Assembly (NCBI GenBank): GCA_966112955.1 | Contig: CBHWEO010000001.1 | Coordinates: forward strand, 35,548 to 99,547 | Direction of reading: 5' to 3' | From: an uncultured Duganella sp. | GTDB taxonomy: Bacteria > Pseudomonadota > Gammaproteobacteria > Burkholderiales > Burkholderiaceae_D | DNA: 64,000 nt | Shown here: piece after piece, positions 17,857 through 52,065 of the stretch | Layout of the letters: the number at the start of each line of letters is the position of its first letter | Numbering within the stretch: position 1 is the first letter of the stretch | The notes under the pieces: model-generated | Told to the model about the DNA's origin: nothing | Seen by the model: only the letters and a program-made list of their open reading frames with translations | The model's database searches: none | Made by a program: the position numbers and the translations under genes

Positions 17857-17870
17857 TTGACTTGAGTCAA
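17857..17870. promoter_or_regulatory. FNR/Anr-type box (TTGACTTGAGTCAA)
   Basis: Perfect TTGAC-N4-GTCAA palindrome, 74 bp upstream of the 17938 ATG. Confidence 0.75.
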
Positions 17871-17937: not shown

Positions 17938-19524
17938 ATGCCAATCCTGAGCCGCTTATGGCGCGTCAATGCCGCCCTGTGGGGATACCTGCTGTGGCTG
18001 GCCTGCGTGCGCCTGCACCTGTTGCGGCCCAGCGTCTCGCCCGGCCTGCGCTTTGCATCCACGCTTGAGGGCCTGGGCACCACATTCGTCAAGCTCGGCC
18101 AGGGCCTGAGCCTGCACAGCGAGCTGCTGCCGGATGACTTCATCCAGGCCCTGGGCAAGCTGCAGGAGCACGTGGCGCCATTTCCCGCCGAGCTCGCCCT
18201 GCGGGAAATCGAGCGCTCCGTCGGCCAGCCCTTGGCAGCGGCTTTTGCCGAAGTCGAACCGCGGCCGCTGGCCGCAGGTTCCATCGCCCAGGTACACAGC
18301 GCCGTACTGAAGGACGGCCGGCGCGTGATCATCAAGGTCAGGCGTCCCGGCATCCGGCGCCAGATCGAGCAGGACGTCCGCATCCTGCGCTGGTTCGTGC
18401 GCACGCTGCTGGCGGTACTGCCGCGCTTTCGGCGCCTGCTGTCGCTGGACCTGATCGACGAGCTGTCGCGCAACCTGCACCGTGAAATCGCCTTCCGCCA
18501 GGAAGTCGCGAATATTGCCTGTTTCGTCGAGTTGTTCCGCGATTCGCCCACCGTCCACGTGCCGGCGCCCGTGCCGGAACTCAGTTCGGACTGGGTGCTG
18601 GTGCAGGAAATGCGCGTCGGCCGCCGCCTCGACGATCCGGCTTCCCGCGCCGACGGCAAGCGCCTGGCGCAAAACCTGGTGGATGCCTATTTGCGGCAGA
18701 TCTTCACGGCCGGCGTATTCCATGGCGACCCGCATCCGGGCAATGTGTTCGTGCTGGAGGATGGGCGCCTGTGCCTGCATGACTTCGGCCTGGTCGGCGT
18801 ACTCGACCGCACCACACGCGCCAACCTCGCCAGCTTCATGCAGGCACTGCAGCACCAGGACGGCGAATGGCTGCTGGATGCCTGCCTTGACCTCGGTATC
18901 CTGCAAGGCCAGCTGGACCGCAATGTCTACCGTCGCAAGCTGGAAGAACTGGTGCAGGACTATGCCCGGCTGCCGCTGCGCGACTGGTCCTTCGGCCAAG
19001 CCTTCGTGCGCATCTCGCGCATGGGCCAGGGCCGCCACCTGCATTTGCCCCACAACCTGCTGGTACTGCTGCGCGCCGTGTTCCTGATGGAAAGCGCGGT
19101 GCGGATGCTCGACCCCGAGTTCAACCTGATGGAAGGCTTGTGCGCCAAGGCCGGCCAGGTGCTGTCGGCCAGCGCCGTACCGGCTTTCGACGAACTGGCC
19201 ACGCGCCTGAAGAGCGAGGCGCTGGCCTCGCTGCAGGAATTGCCGGCCACCGTCAACCGGCTGGCGCACCGCCTGCGCACCGACGGGCTGGCAATCACCT
19301 TCCACCACGCCGGGCTCGATGAAATCCACGGCGAAATGCGTCGGGCCAGCCAGCGCGTCGCCGCCGCCCTGATCGCGCTCGGCCTGTACATCGCGTCGGC
19401 CCTGGTGCTGCAACAGGATATCGGTCCGCGCCTCGGCGGCATGCCCTTGCTGGCAGCAGCCGGCTTCACCGTCGCCGCCTGGCTCACCTACCGCGTCGTG
19501 CGGGTACTGGACCGCAACCCGTGA
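17938..19524 (+). CDS. AarF/ABC1/UbiB-family atypical kinase
   Basis: LG.TFVKLGQ.LS, LAAGSIAQVH, VIIKVRRPGI, FHGDPHPGN and HDFGLVG; C-terminal TM hairpin. Confidence 0.92.
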   Translation: MPILSRLWRVNAALWGYLLWLACVRLHLLRPSVSPGLRFASTLEGLGTTFVKLGQGLSLHSELLPDDFIQALGKLQEHVAPFPAELALREIERSVGQPLAAAFAEVEPRPLAAGSIAQVHSAVLKDGRRVIIKVRRPGIRRQIEQDVRILRWFVRTLLAVLPRFRRLLSLDLIDELSRNLHREIAFRQEVANIACFVELFRDSPTVHVPAPVPELSSDWVLVQEMRVGRRLDDPASRADGKRLAQNLVDAYLRQIFTAGVFHGDPHPGNVFVLEDGRLCLHDFGLVGVLDRTTRANLASFMQALQHQDGEWLLDACLDLGILQGQLDRNVYRRKLEELVQDYARLPLRDWSFGQAFVRISRMGQGRHLHLPHNLLVLLRAVFLMESAVRMLDPEFNLMEGLCAKAGQVLSASAVPAFDELATRLKSEALASLQELPATVNRLAHRLRTDGLAITFHHAGLDEIHGEMRRASQRVAAALIALGLYIASALVLQQDIGPRLGGMPLLAAAGFTVAAWLTYRVVRVLDRNP

Positions 19525-19540
19525 ACAACAGGAGATTCCC

Positions 19541-20827
19541 TTGAGCCTTGACTTGGCCCCCACCACATTAAAAGAACAGCAATTGCTCGAACACTGGAAG
19601 GCCGACCCCACGGCCACTTACCGCAGCTGGTTCCTGTGGGCCGAGCGCCTCAAGAATTTCCGCTCGATTCGCCGCGGGTTGCAGGCGGTGGTCAAGGAGA
19701 TCCGCGAAAACAGCTTCGGCAACGCCTACCGCGGCTCGTCGCTCGAAACCGTGGTCCACTCGATCGCCGAGCAGCGCCAGATATTCAAGGGCGCCGACCA
19801 CGCATTTCTGTGGAAGCCCAAACTGCGTATCCCGGACATTTACGAGCATCGCGACAACCAGCTCGCCTTTGCACGCTTTCTCGACACCTGCCTGTGCTGC
19901 AACGCCGAAGCCGGCGTCGTGGAGGCGATCCGCGAACTCGATGCCCGCCAGATCAAAGGCCTGGGACCCGCCTGCGCCAACCTGCTGTATTTCCTGCACT
20001 CCACCCTGGTCCCGCCCAACAATACGGCGATCGTCAAGGGATTCAATGCCTTCTTTGGCGCCAGCGTCAAGCTGGGGCGGTGGAACGATTACCTCGCGAT
20101 GCGTGAGCGTGTCCTCGAGTTCAACGCAACGCACCGCAAGTGCCTGTCGAACGATCTCGGCGCTGTGGCCGGCTTTCTGTTCGACGTTGGCACGGGCCGC
20201 TATCCAGCAGTCGCCGGCCGGGCCGCCCCGCTCGACTGGCAAGCCGACCTGGCAAAAGCGCACGCCGAATCCGCGGCGGCGCAGCGGGCGCGCGTGGCCG
20301 CCAGCCAGAACGAGCAAACGCATACGCAGGTGCAAGGTTGCCTGCGGGACCTTGGCATGGCGCTTGGCTTCAGGGTGTGGGTAGCGAGCAACGACAAAAG
20401 CCGGCCCTTTGGCCACGGGCGCCTGGACGACGGCTGCCTGCAAGAGCTTCCGGCGTCCATCCGTGCCAGCGGCGCCGCCGACACCATCGCCTTGATCGAC
20501 GTGTTATGGCTCAACCGGGACTCCGGCCAGATCAGGATGGCATTCGAAGTTGAGCACAGCACCAGCATCTATTCCGGCATCGTCCGTATGCTGGACCTTG
20601 CCCTCGGCGTCCCGCACCACGAAGGGGCTGTCTTCTTCCTGGTGGCGCCGGACGCCCGCGAAAGCGAGGTGCGCGAGCAATTCGCCAGGCCGGCATTTTC
20701 GCGCGTCAAGGAACTCAACGTTCGCTACATCGGTTATGGCGAGCTGACCCGGCATAGCGAAGCCATTGCCCGCTTTGGCGATGGCGAAAAAGCCATCCTC
20801 GCCATTTCCAAACCGCTGGCATCGTAG
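19541..20827 (+). CDS. Putative nuclease: N-terminal HhH-like region + C-terminal PD-(D/E)XK restriction-endonuclease-like domain
   Basis: IKGLGPACANLLYFLH (HhH-like), HTQVQ..L..LG...G..VW, IDVLW and AFEVEHSTSIYSG. TTG start after AGGAGA. Confidence 0.6.
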   Translation: MSLDLAPTTLKEQQLLEHWKADPTATYRSWFLWAERLKNFRSIRRGLQAVVKEIRENSFGNAYRGSSLETVVHSIAEQRQIFKGADHAFLWKPKLRIPDIYEHRDNQLAFARFLDTCLCCNAEAGVVEAIRELDARQIKGLGPACANLLYFLHSTLVPPNNTAIVKGFNAFFGASVKLGRWNDYLAMRERVLEFNATHRKCLSNDLGAVAGFLFDVGTGRYPAVAGRAAPLDWQADLAKAHAESAAAQRARVAASQNEQTHTQVQGCLRDLGMALGFRVWVASNDKSRPFGHGRLDDGCLQELPASIRASGAADTIALIDVLWLNRDSGQIRMAFEVEHSTSIYSGIVRMLDLALGVPHHEGAVFFLVAPDARESEVREQFARPAFSRVKELNVRYIGYGELTRHSEAIARFGDGEKAILAISKPLAS

Positions 20828-20834
20828 GGCGGCG

Positions 20835-21500
20835 CTAAGGCTCCTGGACCTTGGTGGCCGGCACGCTGCCCCAGCGCGGCCAGAAGCGCGGGGTGGCCGC
20901 GGCATAGCGCCGGTAAGCGTCGCCGAATGCGTGCAGCGCCTCGCCTTCCTCCTGGCGTGCCAGCAAGACGTACATCACGCACAGCACGGGGAACATCAGC
21001 AGGGTCAGCAACGTCGGCCACTGCAGCAGGAAGCCGAACATGATCAGGATGAAGGCCGCGTATTGCGGGTGGCGCATGCGTGCATACCATCCGGTGGTCG
21101 CCAGCCGGTGCGCGCGCTGCGCTTCATACAGCACCCGCCAGGCCGAAGCCAGCAGCAGGAAGCCGCCAAAGATGAACAGGTTACTCAGCAGATGGAACGG
21201 CCCCCAGTGCGGGTTGGCCTTCCAGCCCAGCAGCATTTCGAGCAGGTGGCCAGCGTCGTGCGAGAGCCAGTCGATGCCGGGAAAATACTGCTTCAGCCAT
21301 GGCAGCAGCAGGTAGATCGTCAGCGGGAAGCCGTACATCTCGGCAAACAGCGCCACCAGGAATCCCGAGAAAGCGCCAAACGAGCGCCAGTCGCGCCGGG
21401 TCCGCGGTGTATAGAAGCTGAGCGCGAACACGATGAAAATGGCCGAATTGAGAAAGGCCAGCGACCACAGGCCATATCCCGCTTGCGTAGCGTGGTTCAT
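20835..21500 (-). CDS. Isoprenylcysteine carboxyl-methyltransferase (ICMT/PEMT) family membrane protein
   Basis: [15 protein letters not shown], and EE..AL..FG..Y..Y...TPRF.P at the C-terminus. Confidence 0.88.
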
Positions 21501-21704
21501 TCACTCCTCCCTTGCCCCGTTGCGCTCGCGGCCGTGATGGTGCTTGCCGTGCCCGCGGTGCATCAACAGGTGCATCAGGGGGCAGGCCAGGAACAAGGCG
21601 TATGGCAGGAACGCCACCAGGTGGGCACGGTGTTCCGTCCACAGGAAGTATGCCGCCACCGCCAGGAATCCCCCCAGCACCAGGCGGTACGTGGTATTGC
21701 TCAT
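21501..21704 (-). CDS. DUF2933-type small membrane protein (67 aa)
   Basis: MSNTTYRLVLGGFLAVAAYFLWTEHRAHL...LACPLMHLLMHRGHGKHHHG; abuts the ICMT start. Confidence 0.85.
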   Translation of the reverse strand: MSNTTYRLVLGGFLAVAAYFLWTEHRAHLVAFLPYALFLACPLMHLLMHRGHGKHHHGRERNGAREE

Positions 21705-21773
21705 GACGTGCTCCCATGCGTTCAGGGACCAGCCCCGATGGCCCACTGTACGACCGCGCGGCGATCGCAGTCC

Positions 21774-21787
21774 TTGACCTGGATCAA
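21774..21787. promoter_or_regulatory. FNR/Anr-type box (TTGACCTGGATCAA)
   Basis: Near-perfect consensus, centred between the divergent starts 21704(-) and 21849(+). Confidence 0.8.
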
Positions 21788-21848
21788 AATCGCCACACAG
21801 GCGGGCGGCGCCACCGCAAAGCGGCGCGGGCGGCATACAATCACTGGC

Positions 21849-23021
21849 ATGGACTCCCTTGTCATCAGCGCTACCGCCACCCCACCGTGGAACAGCCGCG
21901 CCGTCGAAATGTGCGAGCATAAGGGCATCGGCCATCCGGACAGCATTTGCGACGGCATCGCCGAAGCCGCCTCGCAAGCGCTGTGCCGCGCCTATCTCGC
22001 ACAATACGGCGCCATCCAGCACCACAATGTCGACAAGGCGCTGCTGGTGGGCGGCGAGGCCACGCCCCGCTTTGGCGGCGGCGAACTGCTGGCGCCGGCG
22101 CGCCTGATCCTGTGCGGCCGTGCCAGCGCCCTGCCGCCACCACTGCACCTTGATGAGGTGCTGGAGCAGGCCGTGCGCGATTACCTGGCGCAGCACCTGC
22201 GGCACGCCCGGGAGCTGTTCCGTATCGAGATTGCGGTACGCGCGGGCAGCCCCAACCTGCGGCAAGTGTTCGCGCGCGGCGCCGCCATCGCCAACGACAC
22301 CTCCTTCGGTGTCGGCTATGCTCCGCTGTCGCCGCTGGAGCAGGCGGTCCTGGCGCTGGCCGACGCCATGCGCATGCCGGACTTCCAGCGCGCCTTTCCC
22401 GCCGCCGGCGACGACTTCAAGATCATGGGGCGCCGCGTCGGCAGCCAGCTTGCCATGACGGTGGCACTGGCCTTTATCGACCGCCAGGTTGCCAGCAGCG
22501 ACGCCTACCAGCAGCAGAAGGAGGCGGTACGCGCGCACCTGCAGGCGCAACTGGGCAGCGACTGCCCGCTCACGCTGAATGCCCTGGACCGTTCGCAAGT
22601 GGTGACGGAGGCGGACTGCTTCCTTACGGTCACCGGTCTCAGCGCGGAACAGGGTGACGATGGCGAGGTGGGGCGCGGCAACCGCGTCAACCGCCTGATC
22701 ACGCCCAACCGCACCATGTCGCTGGAGGCGGCGGCGGGCAAGAATCCGGTGGCGCACGCCGGCAAGCTGTACAACGTATTGGCCCGGCAGATGGCCGCCG
22801 CCCTGCAGGCACGGCTGGACGGCGCCGAAGTCACGGTGCAGCTGCTGTCGGAAATCGGCGCCCCGCTCGACCAGCCACGCCTGGTGCATGTCGACGTGCG
22901 GCAGGCTGCGCCGCTCAGCCCGGCGGAACACGCAATGGTGCGTGAAGTGGTCGCGGCGCAGCTGCGGGCGCTGCCAGCCCTGTCGCAAGACATCGTGGCA
23001 GGGAAGGTCCGCCTGTTCTAA
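21849..23021 (+). CDS. mat: Methionine adenosyltransferase, archaeal-type
   Basis: VEMCEHKGIGHPDSICD, ANDTSFGVGYAP, GEVGRGNR.N.LITP.R.MSLEA.AGKNPV.H.GKLYN. Start is 21849; the upstream part of ORF 20766 is shadow. Confidence 0.88.
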   Translation: MDSLVISATATPPWNSRAVEMCEHKGIGHPDSICDGIAEAASQALCRAYLAQYGAIQHHNVDKALLVGGEATPRFGGGELLAPARLILCGRASALPPPLHLDEVLEQAVRDYLAQHLRHARELFRIEIAVRAGSPNLRQVFARGAAIANDTSFGVGYAPLSPLEQAVLALADAMRMPDFQRAFPAAGDDFKIMGRRVGSQLAMTVALAFIDRQVASSDAYQQQKEAVRAHLQAQLGSDCPLTLNALDRSQVVTEADCFLTVTGLSAEQGDDGEVGRGNRVNRLITPNRTMSLEAAAGKNPVAHAGKLYNVLARQMAAALQARLDGAEVTVQLLSEIGAPLDQPRLVHVDVRQAAPLSPAEHAMVREVVAAQLRALPALSQDIVAGKVRLF

Positions 23022-23033
23022 GGCGCGCCCGCC

Positions 23034-23720
23034 TCAGAGCAGGGGCAAGCCGCCATCCGGCAATTTGCCGGCCACGCTGTCGCCATTGGCCAGCGGCGGC
23101 AGCGGCGTTGCCTTGCGCTGGCGCGGCGCAGGCTGCGGCCGCGCCGGGCGTTGCAGGCGCAGCAGGCGGCGCCGGATTTCGTCCGAATCCATCCACAGGT
23201 CGGAGCCCTTGAGGATGCTTTTGATTTCGCGCAGGCTGAGGAAAGGCACGCACAGGCGCTCCATGAACTTGCCGAACCAGTTGGCGACCGCCACTGCCTG
23301 CGCCTGCTGGTCGCTGCCCTTGCCGGTGAAATAGCCGGAATAGCTGTGGAACAGCAGCTGGCAGTTGTCATGCACCAGCAATTCGTCGCCAGCCAGGAAG
23401 ATGAAGGCGCCCATGGAATACGCGCGCGCCTCCAGCACCGTCACCACATGGGCTGCCGACGCGCGCATATTGTTGATCAACTGCAGTCCCGTGTCGAAAT
23501 CGCCACCCGCCGTGTTCAGGTGCAGGTAAATCAGGTCGGTATCGCTGGCGGAGCGCAGCGTGTAGAACAGGTCGTTGTACCAGGCCGACGCGTCAATCAG
23601 CCCGGACAGGTAGAACGAGACCTGCCGCAACGAGGTTTGCCGCTCGAAGCGTTGCAAGCCATTGAATACCAGCGGCGCTTCGCCGTCGCCTTCGTCCGGT
23701 GCAATTTGATCTTCAGCCAT
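23034..23720 (-). CDS. ClpP/crotonase-like serine protease
   Basis: IYLHLNTAGG, AYSMG (nucleophile Ser), LLFHSY (His) and DLWMD (Asp); RBS GGGAGG. Confidence 0.8.
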   Translation of the reverse strand: MAEDQIAPDEGDGEAPLVFNGLQRFERQTSLRQVSFYLSGLIDASAWYNDLFYTLRSASDTDLIYLHLNTAGGDFDTGLQLINNMRASAAHVVTVLEARAYSMGAFIFLAGDELLVHDNCQLLFHSYSGYFTGKGSDQQAQAVAVANWFGKFMERLCVPFLSLREIKSILKGSDLWMDSDEIRRRLLRLQRPARPQPAPRQRKATPLPPLANGDSVAGKLPDGGLPLL

Positions 23721-23763
23721 GATGGCCTCCCTTCCCCACATCGTTGCGCGGCGTTGCCGAACG

Positions 23764-23798
23764 GGCTGGCGGCGGCCGATGCCGGCCGGCCGCCAGCC
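23764..23798 (-). terminator. GC-rich hairpin downstream of hsp20 (possible terminator or RNA-stabilising stem)
   Basis: GGCTGGCGGC (23764-73) and GCCGCCAGCC (23789-98) form a 10-bp inverted repeat; no U-tract. Confidence 0.35.
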
Positions 23799-23801
23799 GG
23801 T

Positions 23802-24248
23802 TCAGTTGATGGCCACGTGCTTGGACGATTTGCCGGGTTTCTTCGGCAGCGTCAATACCAGCACGCCGTCGGTGTACTTGGCTTCCACCTTGGCGTCATC
23901 GATGTCGCTGGACAGCGTGAAGCTGCGGGTCTGCTGGCCAAAATAGCGTTCCGAGCGCAGCGATTTGCCTTCCTTCTGCTCGGTTTCCCGCTTGAGTTCA
24001 GCGGTGATGGTTACCACGTTGCCTTCGACGTCGACGTCGATGTCCTCTTTCTTCACACCGGGAATTTCCGCCTTCACGGTATAGGCCGTGTCGGCCTCGG
24101 AGACGTCCATCTTGATGCGCGGCTCGACATTCCAGTCGCGCAAGGCCGGGCGCAGGCTGAAGTCCCGCATCCATTCTTCCAGGCCGTGGAAAGGTTCAAA
24201 ACGGGCGAGGTCGCTGAACGGGTCGAAACGGGTCAGGTGATTAGCCAT
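23802..24248 (-). CDS. Hsp20/alpha-crystallin small heat-shock protein
   Basis: MDV.E....YTVKAEIPGVKKEDI.V, ERYFG...RSFTL and AKY.DGVL.LTLPK. Confidence 0.95.
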   Translation of the reverse strand: MANHLTRFDPFSDLARFEPFHGLEEWMRDFSLRPALRDWNVEPRIKMDVSEADTAYTVKAEIPGVKKEDIDVDVEGNVVTITAELKRETEQKEGKSLRSERYFGQQTRSFTLSSDIDDAKVEAKYTDGVLVLTLPKKPGKSSKHVAIN

Positions 24249-24331
24249 GATATTCCTCACTTTCCTGATGAGTTGGCGGCATCCGGCAGGATGCCTGCCA
24301 ATGATCATATGCAGCGGACGCAAGCAGCGAC

Positions 24332-24345
24332 ATGACCTGGGTCAA
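24332..24345. promoter_or_regulatory. FNR/Anr-type box (ATGACCTGGGTCAA)
   Basis: Consensus match, 90 bp upstream of the hsp20 ATG. Confidence 0.7.
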
Positions 24346-24357
24346 TTGCCGCCACGC

Positions 24358-25197
24358 TCACCAGCGGCCGGAGGCGCCGCCACCGCCGAAGCGCCCGCCG
24401 CCGCCCGCGCCATTGCCGTGCGTGCGCCCGCCCAACAGCATCCAGGGCGCGGCAACGCCCAGCAGCGCCAGTACGAAGGCAGCGGCGGCGACGGCCACGC
24501 TGACCAGAAACACACCGCTGAGCAGCCAGACGCTGAGGCCAGCCAGGCTGCCGGCAATGGCGGCACTGGCCAGGCGGCCGCACAGCGCGCGCAAGCCGCG
24601 CGCCAGCAGCAGCGCTACCACCAGGACCGCCAGCGGCGATGGCGCCAGCGCGCTGGCGGCGCGCGGCGCCACGGGCGGCGGCGGCGCCTCGCCTGCCACC
24701 AGCGCCACCATCTGCGCCGTGCCGGCATCCAGCCCGGCGAAGTAGTCGCCGCGGCGGAAGTGCGGCACCATCAGCTCGTCAATCAGGCGCCGGCTGGCGG
24801 CATCGGTCAACACCCCTTCCAGCCCGTAGCCGACCTCGATGCGCGCCGTCCGGGCGGCCGTCGCCACCAGCAGGACGGCGCCATCGTCCACCTTGGCCCG
24901 CCCCAGCTTCCATTGCTCGGCCACGCGCAAGGCGTACTGTTCGATCGGCTCGGCGCCGGTATCGGGCACCAGCAGCACGGCAAGCTGGCTGCCGCGCCGC
25001 GCCTCCAGGCCGGCCAGGCGCTGTTCCAGCACGGCCCGCTGGCCTGCGTTCAGCACCCCGCTCAGGTCCACCACGTGGCCGCTGCGCGGCGGCACCGGCA
25101 TGGCTGTGCCAGGCGCAGCTCCCACGCTTGGCAGCCACAGCAACAATGCCAGCGCCAACAGTAGCAGCAGGACTATATGCAGCGTCCTGGTTTTCAT
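24358..25197 (-). CDS. TPM-domain (YgcG-like) membrane protein
   Basis: VVDLSGVL, E.IEQYALRVAEQWKLGR...DDG..LLVA, RIEVGYGLEG.LTD; Gly-rich tail GRFGGGGASGRW. Confidence 0.9.
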   Translation of the reverse strand: MKTRTLHIVLLLLLALALLLWLPSVGAAPGTAMPVPPRSGHVVDLSGVLNAGQRAVLEQRLAGLEARRGSQLAVLLVPDTGAEPIEQYALRVAEQWKLGRAKVDDGAVLLVATAARTARIEVGYGLEGVLTDAASRRLIDELMVPHFRRGDYFAGLDAGTAQMVALVAGEAPPPPVAPRAASALAPSPLAVLVVALLLARGLRALCGRLASAAIAGSLAGLSVWLLSGVFLVSVAVAAAAFVLALLGVAAPWMLLGGRTHGNGAGGGGRFGGGGASGRW

Positions 25198-25285
25198 GAT
25201 GCCCTCCTCGCAGGCGGCGCGCCACAGCCATCCACGCCGCCAATTCCGCATGGATGGCGCGGGCCGCGCGTGTGATGGCCAGCAG

Positions 25286-26008
25286 CTAGGTCATATACTG
25301 GCCGCCATTGGCACTGAACGTGGCGCCAGTGATGTAGGCGGCATCGTCGCCCACCAGGAAGCGGACGATCCGTGCCACCTCGTCCGGCCTGCCAAGGCGC
25401 CCGACCGGAATCTGGCCGACGATACGCTGCAGGATGGCCTGGTCCATGGCACCCACCATCTCGGTCGCGATATAGCCCGGGGCGACGGCGTTGACGGTGA
25501 TACCCTTGGCCGCCGATTCCAGCGCCAGGGCCTTGGTGAACCCCAGCATTCCGGCTTTGGCGGCCGCGTAATTGGTCTGCCCCAGTTGGCCGCGCTGGCC
25601 ATTGACCGAGGAAATATTGACGATGCGGCCGAAGGCGCGCTCGCGCATGTCGCCGATAACGGCGCGGCACATGTTGAAGCAGGAGGTCAGGTCGGTCGCA
25701 ATCACGCTGTTCCATTGCTCAGGCGACATCTTGTGCAGCATGACGTCATGCGTGATGCCGGCATTGTTGACCAGGATCTCGACTGCGCCCAGCATGTCGC
25801 GCACCCGCGCGATGCCGGCCACACAGGCCGCATAATCCGACACATCCCATTGGCAGACCGGGATGCCTGTCTCGCGATGGAACGCCTCGGCCGCCGTGAA
25901 GTTGCCCTGGAACACCGCCGCCACGCGGTAACCTTCCGCTTTCAGGCGATCCGCAATCGCGGCTCCGATACCGCGCGTACCGCCTGTGACCACTGCCACC
26001 CGTCCCAT
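25286..26008 (-). CDS. phaB: Acetoacetyl-CoA reductase
   Basis: VAVVTGGTRGIG, LVNNAGIT, NISSVNGQRGQ.GQTNYAAAKAG and NGGQYM. Confidence 0.88.
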   Translation of the reverse strand: MGRVAVVTGGTRGIGAAIADRLKAEGYRVAAVFQGNFTAAEAFHRETGIPVCQWDVSDYAACVAGIARVRDMLGAVEILVNNAGITHDVMLHKMSPEQWNSVIATDLTSCFNMCRAVIGDMRERAFGRIVNISSVNGQRGQLGQTNYAAAKAGMLGFTKALALESAAKGITVNAVAPGYIATEMVGAMDQAILQRIVGQIPVGRLGRPDEVARIVRFLVGDDAAYITGATFSANGGQYMT

Positions 26009-26055
26009 ACCCGCCTCCCTGATTTCCGTCTGATGGATTTCCCCAGCCCGCCCGG

Positions 26056-26694
26056 CTAGGCGGCGGCGCCATTGCCGTGCATGTCCAGGGGCACCCCGAT
26101 GCTTTGCGCCAGCAGGATGTGCTGCGTGAAGCGCAGCCCCATTGCCGCCGCCAGGCGTTCACGGTCGATCAGGGCGCGCGGCACGCTGGCCAGGCCCTCG
26201 GCGGCGCACTGGAGCGCGACATTCTGGCTGATGCAGCCGGCGCCGATGGCCGCCAGCTGCAAGCGGTCGGCGGGATCCACCAGCTGCATGCGCGCCAGGT
26301 CGGCGACATAGACCAGGTTCACTGGCGCCTCGGCCACGAAGTCCTGCGTACCGGTCAGGTGGCGCAGGTCCTCGGCGCAGACGTTCAGCAGCAGGTTGAG
26401 GCCGGCGTCATAGCAATACAGGCCCTCCTTCATGGCAACGTAGACATCGGTCTCCTGGTTGTTGTAGGCACTGGGCGCGGTGCGGTGGTCCGGCCGGTTG
26501 TAGCCGGCGGCGGCCCACAGCAATCGCGACAGCTGGTACAGCGGCAGCGGGGCCGGTGCGAACGCGCGCTGCGAACAGCGCCGGCCCAGGATCTCGATCA
26601 TCGACATTCCCAGGTCACTCACGCCCGCGTCCTGTGTGAAACAGGACGGCTTGACTAGATCGATTGCGCTGTTGGCGCGGAACTGTTCACCCAC
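26056..26694 (-). CDS. Nitroreductase / SagB-ThcOx-like FMN oxidoreductase
   Basis: RRCSQRAF, LSRLLWAAAG.N, RTAPSA.N.Q and GCISQNV.L. The GTG start at 26694 follows GGAGG; an alternative start is 26724. Confidence 0.85.
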   Translation of the reverse strand: MGEQFRANSAIDLVKPSCFTQDAGVSDLGMSMIEILGRRCSQRAFAPAPLPLYQLSRLLWAAAGYNRPDHRTAPSAYNNQETDVYVAMKEGLYCYDAGLNLLLNVCAEDLRHLTGTQDFVAEAPVNLVYVADLARMQLVDPADRLQLAAIGAGCISQNVALQCAAEGLASVPRALIDRERLAAAMGLRFTQHILLAQSIGVPLDMHGNGAAA

Positions 26695-26798
26695 CTTTGC
26701 CTCCCTTGGTCGTGGCCCATGCATCCCTTCACGATAGATAATGGAGCGGCGGCTGTCACGGGGAATGGCGGCCGCGCGCGGGAAAATCTCGGCAAAAC

Positions 26799-26812
26799 CT
26801 AATCCAGATCAA
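26799..26812. promoter_or_regulatory. Degenerate FNR-type box overlapping the ADH stop codon (TTGATCTGGATTAG on -)
   Basis: Perfect left half and CTGG spacer, 2 mismatches in the right half; 81-111 bp upstream of the nitroreductase. Confidence 0.4.
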
Positions 26813-27821
26813 ATTTCCCGCCATCGCGGCACGTCCGAAGGCCCGGAACCAGCACCGCCGCCCCGTGCACACGGCCTTTGCGCAGGTCGGCGAGCGCCTC
26901 GTTCGCCTGCAGCAGCGGATAAGTCTGTATCGCAACCTGCAGCGCATGGCGCGCCGCGATCGCCAGGAACGCCGCCGCATCCGCACGCGTGAGGTTGGCC
27001 ACGGAGCGCAGGCTGCGCTCGCCCCACAGCAGCTTGTAGGGGAATGACGGAATATCGCTCATGTGGATGCCGCCGCAGATCACCTTGCCGCCTTTGCGGA
27101 CCGCCGCCAGCGCGCGCGGCACCAGGCCGCCGTCAGGAGCGAAGATCAGTGCGGCATCGAGCGCCGCCGGCGGGTCCTGGTCGGCGCCGCCGGCCCAGGC
27201 CGCGCCGAGCCGCAGGGCGAAGTCCTGCGCCGCCCGGTCGCCCGGGCGGGTGAAGGCGTACACCTCGCTTCCCTGGTGCCGCGCCACCTGCGCCACAAGG
27301 TGCGCCGCGGCCCCGAAACCATAGATGCCCAGCCGCCCTGCCGGCACTGCCATGGCATAGGCGCGATAGCCGATCAAACCGGCGCACATGAGCGGCGCCG
27401 CATGGGCTGCGTCATAGCAGTCAGGTATGGGGTAGGTGAATGCTGCCTCCGCCAGCATGAACTCGGCGTACCCGCCGTTGTGGTCGCAACCGTTGAAACG
27501 GATGGCATCGCACAGGTTCTCGTCGCCACGCGCGCAGGCGCCGCAGGCGCCGCAAGTCCACGCCAGCCAGCCTGCACCGACCCGGTCGCCCAACCGCGGA
27601 CTTGCCACGCCGGGCCCCAGCCGCACCACCCGTCCCACCACCTCATGCCCCGGCACTACCGGATAGCGGGCGGCGACTTCGCCGTCAACCAGATGCAGGT
27701 CCGTGCGGCACACCCCGCACGCTTCGACTTGCAACAGCAGCTGGCCCGCTCCCGGCTCCGGCACGGCCTTCCTTACCGGCCGCAGCGGACTGCCGGGAGC
27801 ATCGAGCTGCATGGCCCACAT
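26799..27821 (-). CDS. Zinc-dependent alcohol dehydrogenase
   Basis: CGVCRTDLH, PGHEVVG, CG.CG.C.RG.ENLC, PLMCAG.IGYRA and GIYGFGAAAH. The start could be up to 39 bp further upstream. Confidence 0.92.
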   Translation of the reverse strand: MWAMQLDAPGSPLRPVRKAVPEPGAGQLLLQVEACGVCRTDLHLVDGEVAARYPVVPGHEVVGRVVRLGPGVASPRLGDRVGAGWLAWTCGACGACARGDENLCDAIRFNGCDHNGGYAEFMLAEAAFTYPIPDCYDAAHAAPLMCAGLIGYRAYAMAVPAGRLGIYGFGAAAHLVAQVARHQGSEVYAFTRPGDRAAQDFALRLGAAWAGGADQDPPAALDAALIFAPDGGLVPRALAAVRKGGKVICGGIHMSDIPSFPYKLLWGERSLRSVANLTRADAAAFLAIAARHALQVAIQTYPLLQANEALADLRKGRVHGAAVLVPGLRTCRDGGKFDLD

Positions 27822-27908
27822 TGTCGGTTGCTCCCTGCTGGATCCCGCCATGGCGACCACCTCCCTGTTTGCGAGGTACTACCATAACCGGCGCCCGGCG
27901 CGGCAGCC

Positions 27909-50964: not shown

Positions 50965-50978
50965 TTGATCCAGATCAT
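50965..50978. promoter_or_regulatory. FNR/Anr-type box (TTGATCCAGATCAT)
   Basis: One mismatch to TTGAT-N4-ATCAA, 60 bp upstream of the CBS gene. Confidence 0.75.
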
Positions 50979-52051: not shown

Positions 52052-52065
52052 TTGATCCAGATCAA
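52052..52065. promoter_or_regulatory. FNR/Anr-type box, perfect consensus (TTGATCCAGATCAA)
   Basis: Exact TTGAT-N4-ATCAA upstream of a USP gene. Confidence 0.85.

What the first reader, a model, noticed from the sequence alone, without database searches (positions are those of the whole stretch)
19541..20827. Orphan nuclease fusing a helix-hairpin-helix-like domain to a PD-(D/E)XK domain, with no methyltransferase
Seen: IKGLGPACANLLYFLH..VPP.NTAIV (about 19952 onward) resembles the HhH motif and following segment of DNA glycosylase-like folds. A helical linker leads to IDVLW...AFEVEH (about 20494-20557), a restriction-endonuclease-like D...ExE centre. No DNA MTase occurs in the window. The gene starts 16 bp after the UbiB-like gene, so it may share the FNR-type promoter. 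Inference: a modification- or damage-dependent endonuclease (type IV-like anti-phage defence or repair), possibly induced in dormancy.
Basis: partly seen in the sequence, partly recalled or inferred. Interest (0 to 1): 0.65.

Follow-up and report, generated by a model that had tools for sequence, protein, structure and literature searches.

The report
CopL-type orphan nuclease of copper islands
The gene encodes a lone restriction-enzyme-like nuclease with no methylase partner; it belongs to the uncharacterised CopL family, which sits inside copper-resistance gene clusters in more than ten bacterial phyla, so it is probably not a conventional restriction or phage-defence gene.

Summary
The ORF (19541-20827, +, 428 aa), its motifs and the lack of any DNA methyltransferase in the window are confirmed. 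The C-terminal third is a PD-(D/E)XK domain (D320...E336-x-E338-H339). It is homologous to the cleavage domain of the type II enzyme R.NmeDI (Pfam NmeDI_C; PADLOC REase_II, E=1.8e-15). The N-terminal 230 residues form an all-helical domain with a good HhH motif. Its only structural neighbours are MutY-type glycosylases, and those matches are weak (Foldseek E 0.08-0.7, TM about 0.35). An invariant Asn sits where the glycosylase Asp would be.

The protein is 60% identical over its full length to CopL (Rmet_6120) of the Cupriavidus metallidurans pMOL30 cop cluster, whose function is unknown. Homologues occur in at least 10 phyla and on 183 plasmids, including Enterococcus and Listeria copper-resistance plasmids, and in no phage. 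No C5 methylase lay within about 7 kb of any locus, and no methylase family ranked among neighbours. Copper or metal genes lie within 7 kb in 74% of loci, against 3.4% background.

In this genome the gene sits with ICMT-DUF2933 in an FNR-box stress cluster, 16 bp after a UbiB-like kinase gene. "Orphan nuclease" is supported. "Anti-phage type IV" is not. A role in DNA transactions linked to copper stress is the best guess and is unproven.

The parts
17857..17870 (.). FNR/CRP-type palindrome TTGACTTGAGTCAA, 68 nt upstream of the UbiB-like ATG. It is the likely operator of the UbiB-copL transcription unit.
   Evidence: It is one of three TTGA-N6-TCAA sites in the window. Related boxes (xTGA-N6-TCAA) stand upstream of the UbiB orthologue in genome G024. 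Function is inferred.
17938..19524 (+). UbiB-like ABC1 atypical kinase gene, immediately upstream and probably in the same operon.
   Evidence: Pfam ABC1, E=3.4e-61. The gap to the next gene is 16 nt. No promoter-like or terminator-like site lies between them.
19530..19534 (+). Shine-Dalgarno AGGAG, 6 nt before the TTG start.
19541..20827 (+). CopL-family gene (428 aa): HhH-bearing helical domain, long helix, then NmeDI_C PD-(D/E)XK nuclease domain.
19541..20236 (+). N-terminal all-alpha domain (residues 1-232), the most conserved part of the family.
   Evidence: AF2 domain model has pLDDT 87.8 and pTM 0.86. Its top five Foldseek hits are all MutY, at E 0.08-0.7. Mean pairwise identity is 67%, against 59% for the nuclease domain.
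19811..19846 (+). Nearly invariant loop WKPKLRIPDIYE (residues 91-102), the best-conserved segment of the whole protein. It is a candidate substrate-contact or active-site loop.
   Evidence: The loop has low pLDDT in both models.
19889..19900 (+). C117-x-C119-C120. Together with C299 (20435-20437) it makes four Cys conserved in the main clade only. It is a possible metal site and the reason CopL is called 'cys-rich'.
   Evidence: The literature label is in PMC7563307.
19952..19999 (+). Helix-hairpin-helix motif IKGLGPACANLLYFLH (G140, G142 and N147 conserved).
   Evidence: hhalign places it on the LPGVGRxTA HhH of Nth/MutY, but the overall score is not significant.
20021..20023 (+). Near-invariant N161 (63 of 64 sequences) in PP-x-N-T-A-I-V. 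By eye it sits where HhH-GPD glycosylases have the catalytic Asp (P-V-D-T-H-I).
   Evidence: 63 of 64 sequences have N. The positional equivalence is by motif inspection; the hhalign register differs by 2 residues.
20237..20362 (+). Long single helix (residues 233-274) linking the domains. It is the least conserved part and a possible dimerisation element.
   Evidence: DSSP on the AF2 model shows helix 233-274. Mean pairwise identity is 44%.
20372..20824 (+). NmeDI_C-type PD-(D/E)XK nuclease domain. Candidate catalytic residues are D320 (20498-20500), E336 (20546-20548), E338 (20552-20554) and H339.
   Evidence: PADLOC REase_II E=1.8e-15, residues 259-401. Precomputed Pfam PF27126 NmeDI_C. All these residues are shared with a full-length NmeDI-type enzyme.
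20835..21500 (-). ICMT/PEMT-like membrane methyltransferase, convergent with copL (7 nt between the stop codons).
   Evidence: Pfam ICMT and PEMT. ICMT homologues lie within 7 kb of copL in 6 other genomes.
21501..21704 (-). DUF2933 gene, the family of CopO on pMOL30.
   Evidence: DUF2933 also lies next to copL homologues on pMOL30 and on the Enterococcus and Listeria plasmids.
21774..21787 (.). Second FNR-type box, TTGACCTGGATCAA, between the DUF2933 gene and the archaeal-type SAM synthetase gene.

Best explanation
**Shown (about 0.9 sure)**
- The gene is a member of the CopL family, whose prototype is Rmet_6120 of the pMOL30 cop1 cluster.
- The protein is cytoplasmic and has two domains.
- A highly conserved all-helical N-terminal domain carries a helix-hairpin-helix motif. 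A long helix joins it to a PD-(D/E)XK domain homologous to the cleavage module of the type II enzyme R.NmeDI.
- All conserved acidic residues are intact (D320, E336, E338).
- It has no methyltransferase partner.
- It travels as an accessory gene of copper and heavy-metal resistance islands in many phyla.

**Inferred mechanism (about 0.35 sure)**
- It is a Mg2+-dependent DNA endonuclease that is not aimed by a methylation-protected sequence.
- The N-domain binds DNA through the HhH. It recognises a universal DNA feature: a damaged or metal-modified base, or an abnormal structure.
- Candidate recognition elements are the invariant WKPKLRIPDIYE loop, Q78 and N161. The domain resembles an inactive MutY/EndoIII-like reader, with Asn in place of the catalytic Asp.
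- The long helix lets two subunits pair. The NmeDI-type module then cuts nearby, as R.NmeDI cuts at a fixed distance from its site.
- The benefit would be DNA quality control or repair while copper stress is on.
- A CxCC + Cys299 site in the main clade may bind metal and tune activity.

**In this genome**
- The gene, with its usual companions ICMT and DUF2933, has landed in an FNR-box stress cluster.
- It is probably co-transcribed with a UbiB-like kinase, so it would be expressed at low oxygen rather than under a copper regulator.
For: **Family and spread**
- 60% identity over 421 aligned columns to pMOL30 CopL. The copL position and locus tag are confirmed from PMC7563307 and PMC9045368.
- More than 6,452 homologues. 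569 of 599 pattern hits in species genomes were confirmed, and the 80 kept span 10 phyla at 61-80% identity.
- 183 plasmids and no phage.

**Nuclease domain**
- PADLOC REase_II E=1.8e-15 and PF27126 NmeDI_C.
- Invariant residues are shared with a full-length NmeDI-type enzyme that matches the model at E=4e-123.
- R.NmeDI cuts 12/7 nt away on both sides of its site, as a tetramer (PMC2095814).

**N-domain**
- The domain model is confident. MutY chains are the top five Foldseek hits, and MutY/OGG1 also top the whole-protein search.
- HhH and N161 are conserved.
- The N-domain is more conserved than the nuclease domain in every distant pair.

**No methylase**
- None in 10 annotated contexts.
- No C5-MTase in 80 + 23 loci. 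21 of 50 host genomes have no C5-MTase at all.
- No MTase family appears among the 25 commonest neighbour families.

**Copper link**
- 39 of 53 loci have a copper or metal gene within 7 kb, and 32 of 53 within 3 kb. The own-genome background is 3.4% and 2.1%.
- The commonest neighbours are multicopper oxidase, P1B-ATPase, CopB, HMBD, DUF305, HMA and CusF.
- In CH34, copL has a CopR-like motif upstream of its TSS and is listed among metal-mix-upregulated genes (PMC7563307 and PMC11647585).

**Operon**
-.
Against: **N-domain assignment is weak**
- No biochemical data exist for any family member.
- The HhH-GPD assignment is not statistically supported: Foldseek E >= 0.08 with TM 0.34-0.37, hhalign E=0.15, and the Pfam HhH-GPD model does not detect the protein.
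- The 'reader of damaged bases' idea therefore rests on motif-level resemblance.

**Expression and physiology**
- In CH34, copL was not induced by acute copper (PMC7563307). The protein was not found in proteomes (PMC11647595).
- From my own knowledge, unchecked here: Macomber, Rensing and Imlay (2007) reported that excess copper does not raise oxidative DNA damage in E. coli. That weakens a simple oxidative-lesion story.

**Context is not universal**
- 14 of 53 loci show no recognisable metal gene nearby.
- The present locus has only ICMT and DUF2933, so the copper link is strong but not obligatory.
- Co-location on mobile islands could still be hitch-hiking.
Confidence: 0.4

Rival explanations
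1. A methylase-independent restriction or defence nuclease (type IV-like, or aimed at some foreign-DNA feature). It would be carried as cargo by the mobile elements that also carry metal resistance, and the link to copper genes would be hitch-hiking.
For: - The only match in a defence library is to a restriction-enzyme model.
- It is solitary, accessory and patchy: only 5 of the 48 other same-genus genomes carry a close homologue.
- It is common on plasmids, 123 of 183 conjugative or mobilisable.
- It often lies near Tn3 transposases, integrases and IS elements.
- Its reader-plus-distance-cutter layout resembles the MspJI and PvuRts1I classes (my knowledge).
Against: - Across 6 phyla the gene lies directly beside copper genes on quite different mobile and chromosomal backbones. 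In Leptolyngbya and Hymenobacter it is on the same strand immediately after the P-type ATPase or metal genes.
- The putative specificity domain is the most conserved part, and identity between phyla is 61-67%. Both are unlike fast-evolving defence genes.
- None occurs in phages.
- No known modified-base reader domain is detected.
Confidence: 0.25
2. A DNA-binding regulator or sensor of the copper cluster. The CxCC + Cys299 site would sense Cu(I), and the nuclease fold would be used for DNA binding or dimerisation rather than cutting.
For: - On pMOL30, copL is divergent from copOFGJ with a shared promoter region, the classic position of a regulator (PMC11647585).
- Four Cys are conserved throughout the main clade.
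- The HhH is a DNA-binding motif.
Against: - The acidic catalytic residues D320, E336 and E338 are invariant even in the clades that lack the Cys. That argues for retained catalysis.
- The Cys site is absent from the Enterococcus, Hymenobacter and Leptolyngbya versions, which sit in the same context.
- Orientation relative to neighbours is variable.
- The cop clusters already encode CopRS, CopY, CsoR or MerR regulators.
Confidence: 0.1
3. A nuclease serving the island itself: homing-like spread, site-specific cutting that favours integration or retention of the copper island, or exclusion of competing elements.
For: - It often lies at the edge of copper modules, next to integrase or transposase genes.
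- Distribution is wide and patchy, with high identity between phyla.
Against: - No conserved partner recombinase and no fixed position relative to island ends.
- In many loci it is internal to operon-like copper gene runs.
- Within this data set the tree largely follows phyla, 13 label changes against a shuffled mean of 23.6. This is not the pattern of an actively homing gene.
Confidence: 0.1
4. An ordinary type II restriction enzyme whose methyltransferase is encoded elsewhere in the genome.
For: - NCBI, JGI and UniRef name many members 'type II restriction endonuclease'.
- The catalytic domain is homologous to that of R.NmeDI.
- The own genome has one unlinked N6/N4 methylase on contig C64.
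Against: - R.NmeDI's partner is a C5-MTase overlapping its gene (PMC2095814). Here there is no C5-MTase in the genome, none in 21 of 50 other host genomes and none in any locus.
- The NmeDI recognition half is not present: only model positions 176-319 of 351 match.
- An enzyme spreading by horizontal transfer without its methylase would kill new hosts.
Confidence: 0.03

Closest known systems
CopL (Rmet_6120, WP_008652084.1) of the cop1 cluster of Cupriavidus metallidurans CH34 plasmid pMOL30
   Same: - Full-length homologue: 60% identity over residues 9-426 with the same domain order.
- Same CxCC and Cys299.
- A DUF2933 gene (CopO on pMOL30) lies next door in both.
   Different: - On pMOL30, copL is divergent from copOFGJ, amid copABCD, copH and copE, and has a CopR-type motif upstream of its TSS.
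- Here there is no P-type ATPase, multicopper oxidase or CopRS within the 64-kb window. The gene follows a UbiB-like kinase behind an FNR-type box.
- CopL itself has no known function; it is labelled 'cys-rich cytosolic protein' (PMC7563307).
R.NmeDI, type II restriction endonuclease of Neisseria meningitidis (RCCGGY, cuts 12/7 on both sides; PMC2095814); Pfam NmeDI_C (PF27126); PADLOC REase_II PDLC03534
   Same: - The C-terminal roughly 150 residues are homologous (E=1.8e-15).
- The conserved Q, ND, ID, W, ExEH, SG..R, PD and RP positions are shared with a full-length NmeDI-type enzyme.
   Different: - The N-terminal recognition half of NmeDI (model positions 1-175) is replaced by an unrelated 230-residue HhH domain plus a 40-residue helix.
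- There is no overlapping C5-methyltransferase gene.
- The context is copper resistance, not restriction-modification.
HhH-GPD DNA glycosylases (MutY, endonuclease III, OGG1; Pfam PF00730)
   Same: - All-alpha domain of similar size.
- A good HhH (IKGLGPAxANLL against LPGVGRKTANVV) followed by P-x-(D/N)-T-x-I.
- MutY and OGG1 are the best structural matches for the N-domain.
   Different: - The matches are not significant (E >= 0.08, TM about 0.35, rmsd about 10 Å; hhalign E=0.15; no Pfam hit).
- The catalytic Asp position holds a near-invariant Asn (63 of 64 sequences), and the Lys of bifunctional enzymes is Ala.
- There is no Fe-S cluster loop at the glycosylase position.
- The domain is fused to a nuclease.
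Modification-dependent 'reader + PD-(D/E)XK' enzymes (MspJI, PvuRts1I/AbaSI, Mrr-like type IV)
   Same: - Solitary, with no methylase.
- Two-domain logic: a DNA-feature reader joined to a non-specific cleavage module that cuts at a distance (analogy from my knowledge).
   Different: - No SRA, EVE/YTH, Mrr-N or other known reader domain.
- Not in defence islands.
- The reader domain is unusually conserved.
- The context is copper.

Membership tests
CopL family (pMOL30 Rmet_6120 type) | Full-length sequence homology to Rmet_6120 with the same domain order | tested here: met
   BLASTP gives 60% identity over residues 9-426 of 428. The pMOL30 gene at 180704-181969 contains the published copL antisense TSS at 181,548 and is Rmet_6120.
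CopL family (pMOL30 Rmet_6120 type) | Cys-rich signature (CxCC and a fourth Cys) | tested here: met
   C117, C119, C120 and C299 are present. They are conserved in all main-clade members, including CH34 CopL.
CopL family (pMOL30 Rmet_6120 type) | Location inside a copper-resistance (cop) gene cluster | tested here: inconclusive
   Only the usual companions ICMT and DUF2933 are adjacent. No P1B-ATPase, multicopper oxidase, CopB/C/D or CusF lies near the gene; DUF2933 is the only panel hit on its contig. The genome's copper genes are on other contigs. Most homologues do sit in such clusters.
NmeDI-type type II restriction endonuclease | NmeDI_C catalytic domain with conserved acidic residues | tested here: met
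NmeDI-type type II restriction endonuclease | NmeDI N-terminal (recognition) half | tested here: not met
   Only model positions 176-319 of 351 align. A genuine family member aligns over 10-350.
NmeDI-type type II restriction endonuclease | Adjacent cognate C5 DNA methyltransferase | tested here: not met
   No PF00145 match in the genome. No C5-MTase in the window or in 102 homologous loci. M.NmeDI overlaps nmeDIR in Neisseria.
NmeDI-type type II restriction endonuclease | Sequence-specific double-strand cleavage | not testable with these tools
   Needs enzyme assays.
HhH-GPD DNA glycosylase superfamily | Significant sequence or profile match to PF00730 or to Nth/MutY | tested here: not met
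   No Pfam hit at E<=1. A genome-wide PF00730 search finds four other genes but not this one. hhalign against 25 Nth/MutY sequences gives E=0.15.
HhH-GPD DNA glycosylase superfamily | HhH followed by a Gly/Pro-rich loop and a catalytic Asp | tested here: not met
   The HhH is present, but the equivalent position is a near-invariant Asn161. The equivalence is by motif inspection.
HhH-GPD DNA glycosylase superfamily | Fold similarity | tested here: inconclusive
   MutY chains are the top five hits for the domain-only model, but at E 0.08-0.7, TM 0.34-0.37 and rmsd about 10 Å.
Type IV (modification-dependent) restriction / anti-phage defence | No cognate methylase | tested here: met
Type IV (modification-dependent) restriction / anti-phage defence | Known modified-base reader domain, or a match to a type IV model | tested here: not met
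   Pfam and NCBIfam give nothing. PADLOC gives only REase_II on the nuclease part.
Type IV (modification-dependent) restriction / anti-phage defence | Enrichment in defence islands | tested here: not met
   Neighbours are dominated by copper and metal families. No defence families appear among the top 25.
Type IV (modification-dependent) restriction / anti-phage defence | Cleavage of modified DNA or protection from phage | not testable with these tools
   Needs experiments.

The most novel reading that the evidence does not exclude
CopL proteins may be a so far unrecognised class of stress-linked DNA endonucleases. A catalytically silent, glycosylase-like HhH domain would find bases damaged or metallated during copper stress. 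A borrowed restriction-enzyme cleavage module would then incise next to them. This would add a DNA quality-control arm to copper resistance in more than ten phyla, including the copper-resistance plasmids of Enterococcus and Listeria. It might act as an Fe-S-independent stand-in for MutY and EndoIII when copper destroys Fe-S clusters.
Probability: 0.15. Interest if true: 0.85.

Novelty: new variant of a known kind. Interest (0 to 1): 0.58.

Why it matters
- **An old unknown gets a fold.** In the papers read here (2020-2026) CopL, a named gene of the best-studied bacterial copper-resistance cluster, has no assigned function.
- **Two records have not been joined.** Databases label its relatives 'type II restriction endonuclease', but the full-text searches made here found no paper linking that label to CopL.
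- **What the link implies.** It shows a restriction-enzyme cleavage module that has lost its methylase and its recognition domain. It has gained a very conserved HhH domain and become a regular passenger, or component, of copper and heavy-metal islands across phyla.
- **Practical relevance.** These islands include plasmids that spread copper tolerance in farm-associated Enterococcus and food-chain Listeria.
- **What follows.** The result gives a concrete, testable biochemical hypothesis for CopL. It also warns against counting these genes as restriction-modification or phage-defence systems in genome surveys.

Tried and rejected
1. **Library scans.** Pfam (local copy) and NCBIfam scans of the whole protein gave no hit. 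The domain name came only from precomputed annotation.
2. **PDB sequence searches.**
   - The single sequence found nothing.
   - The N-domain profile gave only coronavirus spike HR1 and MADS coiled-coil matches, a heptad and composition artefact that I rejected.
   - The C-domain profile gave nothing meaningful.
3. **Whole-protein Foldseek.** No hit at E<=0.001. Repeating with the N-domain alone improved it only to E=0.08.
4. **Profile-profile comparison.** hhalign of the N-domain against an Nth/MutY profile that I built from 25 genomic sequences was co-linear but not significant.
5. **Contrast cases.**
   - I expected the NmeDI_C-only relatives (Enterobacter plasmid L053; same-genus genome G004, L054) to show an adjacent methylase. 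Neither did within the stretch examined, so they could not serve as a contrast.
6. **Conventional R-M with a distant methylase.** Rejected.
7. **UbiB-copL as a conserved operon.** Rejected.
   - UbiB is absent from all 80 homologous loci.
   - The only same-genus UbiB orthologue (G024) is followed by a metallo-beta-lactamase-fold gene, not copL.
8. **Gene caller.** My simple GC3-based caller misses small genes and genes in lower-GC islands. Neighbour tallies are therefore lower bounds.
10. **tRNA genes.** There are none in the window.
Full report
**1. Observation**

The ORF 19541-20827 (+) is real.
- It starts with TTG. An AGGAG lies 6 nt before it, and the gap to the stop of the upstream UbiB-like gene is 16 nt.
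- They are family invariants, not chance strings.
- The window holds no DNA methyltransferase.
  - Thirty diverse C5-MTases used as tblastn queries hit nothing in it.
  - The 94.8%-complete genome has no PF00145, PF02384 or PF02086 match. Its single PF01555 gene is on another contig.

**2. Family and architecture**

- The protein has more than 6,452 homologues. Many are named 'type II restriction endonuclease' by NCBI, JGI or UniRef, and all carry the precomputed Pfam domain PF27126, NmeDI_C.
- Full-length relatives fall into only about ten 50%-identity clusters.
- An AlphaFold2 model (pLDDT 84.7) shows three parts:
  - an all-helical domain, residues 1-230;
  - one long helix, residues 233-274;
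  - an alpha/beta domain, residues 278-428.

**3. Nuclease domain**

- PADLOC's REase_II model is 351 positions long, the length of R.NmeDI. It matches residues 259-401 at E=1.8e-15, but only through model positions 176-319.
- A 353-aa Enterobacter plasmid enzyme matches that model end to end (E=4e-123).
- Aligned with it, the present protein keeps every invariant position: Q265, D285, I319-D320, W323, E336, E338, H339, S345-G346, R349, P370-D371 and R383-P384.
From my own knowledge, this is a BamHI-like variant of PD-(D/E)XK.
- Weak Foldseek hits for this part are PD-(D/E)XK proteins: YaeQ, 3ijm and the Can2 nuclease domain.
- R.NmeDI recognises RCCGGY and cuts 12/7 nt away on both sides, as a tetramer. 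Its gene overlaps a C5-MTase gene (PMC2095814).
- The shared part is thus best read as a cleavage module that acts at a distance from wherever the other half of the protein binds.

**4. N-terminal domain**

- Modelled alone, it is confident (pLDDT 87.8, pTM 0.86).
- Its five best PDB matches are all MutY. MutY, OGG1 and archaeal Ogg also head the whole-protein search. No match is significant: E 0.08-0.7, TM 0.34-0.37, rmsd about 10 Å.
- A profile-profile comparison with 25 Nth/MutY sequences taken from related genomes is co-linear. It puts IKGLGPAxANLL on LPGVGRxTA, but scores only E=0.15.
- The Pfam HhH-GPD model does not see the protein.
- By eye, PP-x-N161-T-A-I-V corresponds to the glycosylase P-V-D-T-H-I segment.
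  - The catalytic Asp is replaced by an Asn that is invariant in 63 of 64 sequences.
  - The Lys of bifunctional glycosylases is Ala.
- The most conserved stretch of the whole protein is SSLETVVHSIAEQRQIFKGADHAFLWKPKLRIPDIYE (residues 66-102).
- Verdict: an HhH DNA-binding domain, possibly a very distant and catalytically altered relative of HhH-GPD glycosylases. The relationship is not established.
- This domain is more conserved than the nuclease domain, 67% against 59% mean pairwise identity, and in every distant pair. That is the reverse of what is usual for specificity domains of restriction or defence enzymes.

**5. No methylase anywhere**

- Ten annotated or Pfam-annotated contexts from six phyla show none within 7-9 kb.
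- In 80 loci from species-representative genomes no C5-MTase is present.
- 21 of 50 host genomes have no C5-MTase at all.
- Pfam tallies of 225 neighbouring proteins list no methylase family among the commonest 25.

**6. What the neighbours are**

Individual contexts:

| Organism or replicon | Neighbours of the homologue |
|---|---|
| Methylorubrum | CsoR, CopZ-like HMA, DUF411, P-type ATPase |
| Duganella | CzcE on one side and copRS on the other, beside copABCD and cusF |
| Deinococcus | P-type ATPase |
| E. faecium pNB2354_1 and a Listeria plasmid | Two DUF2933 genes, lgt, CopY, P-type ATPase (Enterococcus plasmid only), HMA, multicopper oxidase |
| Hymenobacter | Same-strand run: P-ATPase, cupredoxin, DUF305, DUF4396, then the gene |
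| Leptolyngbya | P-ATPase, then the gene |
| Sphingobium | CusCBA-CusF, then the gene |

Quantitatively:
- With a tblastn panel, 39 of 53 loci of at least 12 kb have a copper or metal gene within 7 kb, and 32 of 53 within 3 kb.
- The same measure over the window's own genome gives 3.4% and 2.1% of positions. This is a one-genome baseline.
- The commonest immediate neighbours by Pfam are multicopper oxidase (11), P1B-ATPase (10), CopB (6), HMBD, DUF305, HMA and CusF.
- The 14 loci without a panel hit have heterogeneous neighbours.

Distribution:
- The gene is on 183 plasmids and in no phage record.
- It is in only 5 of the 48 other genomes of its own genus.
- It is 61-67% identical between phyla, although within the sample it mostly clusters by phylum.

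**7. It is CopL**

- On pMOL30 the homologue (WP_008652084.1, 180704-181969, minus strand) lies between copQ/copH and copO(DUF2933)-copF-copG-copJ.
- This is the gene that the literature calls copL, Rmet_6120:
  - an antisense TSS 'in copL' at 181,548;
  - a TSS 14 bp upstream of Rmet_6120;
  - the operon map 'copL<->copOFGJ' (PMC7563307, PMC9045368, PMC11647585).
- The window protein is 60% identical to it over its full length.
- What the papers say about CopL:
  - it is 'cys-rich cytosolic' and of unknown function;
  - it is not induced by acute copper;
  - it has a CopR-like motif upstream of its TSS;
  - it is listed among genes up-regulated by a metal mix;
  - it is not detected in proteomes.
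- I found no paper linking CopL to a nuclease fold.
- The 'cys-rich' feature is C117-x-C119-C120 plus C299. It is strictly conserved in the main clade but absent from the Enterococcus, Hymenobacter and Leptolyngbya branches.

**8. The local setting**

- Here the gene is not in a cop cluster. It is flanked by:
  - a UbiB-like kinase upstream, on the same strand with a 16-nt gap;
  - convergently, an ICMT-like methyltransferase and a DUF2933 gene;
  - then an archaeal-type SAM synthetase, a ClpP/NfeD-like protein, Hsp20, a TPM-domain protein, a short-chain reductase-like gene (not scanned here), a nitroreductase and an alcohol-dehydrogenase-like gene (not scanned here).
- ICMT and DUF2933 accompany copL elsewhere, for example in Accumulibacter and Comamonadaceae loci and on pMOL30. 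The trio therefore looks like a fragment of a copper module.
- FNR-type palindromes stand before UbiB (17857-17870) and between the DUF2933 and MAT genes (21774-21787).
- No sigma-70-like promoter or terminator separates UbiB from copL.
- The UbiB paralogue is itself rare.
  - One same-genus genome (G024) has it, at 82% identity.
  - There it is divergent from the nitroreductase and the short-chain reductase-like gene and is followed by a metallo-beta-lactamase-fold gene, not copL.
  - No other copL locus has UbiB.
- Co-transcription from a low-oxygen promoter is plausible for this genome. It is a local rearrangement, not a property of the family.

**9. Mechanism and rivals**

- Shown:
  - homology to CopL and to the NmeDI cleavage domain;
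  - intact acidic residues;
  - absence of a methylase;
  - the copper-island association.
- Inferred:
  - The protein is an active Mg2+-dependent endonuclease.
  - Its conserved HhH domain targets a universal DNA feature (lesion, metal adduct or structure) rather than a sequence.
  - Its nuclease cuts nearby.
  - Its selective value lies in DNA maintenance during copper or metal stress.
  - I put about 0.35 on this.
- Points against:
  - the weak fold assignment;
  - no induction by acute copper in CH34;
  - from memory, the report that copper does not raise oxidative DNA damage in E. coli.
- Rivals:

| Rival | Weight |
|---|---|
| MTase-independent defence cargo of metal-resistance elements | 0.25 |
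| Copper-sensing DNA-binding regulator | 0.10 |
| Island-serving nuclease | 0.10 |
| Ordinary type II enzyme with a remote methylase | 0.03 |

**10. Verdict**

- The gene is a new-context member of a known but uncharacterised family.
- The family itself is an unusual variant of a restriction-type nuclease: the NmeDI cleavage module is re-used without a methylase, with a new conserved HhH domain, inside copper-resistance islands.
- Notes from earlier first-stage readers on other genomes independently saw the same orphan gene 'wedged into' metal islands. They read it as a hitch-hiking defence gene. The cross-phylum statistics here make pure hitch-hiking less likely but do not exclude it.

Noticed in passing
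window 21738-23021 (+), with 20835-21704 (-): An archaeal-type S-adenosylmethionine synthetase (PF01941) is divergent from a DUF2933 + ICMT-like methyltransferase pair, with an FNR-type box (21774-21787) between them. One other copL locus (L132, Myxococcota) also has an archaeal-type MAT within 6 kb.
   Followed up: partly
window 17938-27860 versus L173 (G024:C62): The stress cluster is rearranged between two genomes of the genus. In G024 the nitroreductase and short-chain reductase-like genes are divergent from UbiB, about 285 bp apart. In the window they are convergent with UbiB and lie about 5.7 kb away, with copL, ICMT, DUF2933, MAT, ClpP-like, Hsp20 and TPM genes in between. In G024, UbiB is followed by metallo-beta-lactamase-fold, YeeE/YedE-like, FtsH, Usp and BON genes.
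   Followed up: partly
L054:4652-5791 (G004:C77, same genus): A second kind of solitary NmeDI_C protein: 379 aa, with a different N-terminal half and 39% identity to residues 236-388. It lies between an NYN-domain gene and an unknown 278-aa gene, again with no methylase nearby.
   Followed up: partly
window 19889-19900 and 20435-20437: Four cysteines (CxCC in the N-domain, one in the nuclease domain) are strictly conserved in the main clade and absent from the Bacillota, Bacteroidota and Cyanobacteriota branches. They could form an inter-domain metal or Fe-S site. I could not measure distances in the model.
   Followed up: no
window 52052-52065 and 50965-50978: There is a perfect FNR consensus TTGATCCAGATCAA at 52052 and a one-mismatch copy at 50965. 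The window carries several FNR-type boxes in front of stress-type operons.
   Followed up: no
L016 (E. faecium pNB2354_1) and L017 (Listeria plasmid): The copL homologues of Enterococcus and Listeria plasmids lie in a shared block: copL, two DUF2933 genes, lgt, a TIGR01906 membrane protein, CopY, HMA and a multicopper oxidase. Several protein accessions are identical between the two genera.
   Followed up: no
alignment A3, residues 140-211 of the protein: The N-domain profile gives a spurious hit (E=2e-5) to coronavirus spike HR1 constructs in the PDB sequence search, a heptad and composition artefact. This is a caution for automated annotation.
   Followed up: yes
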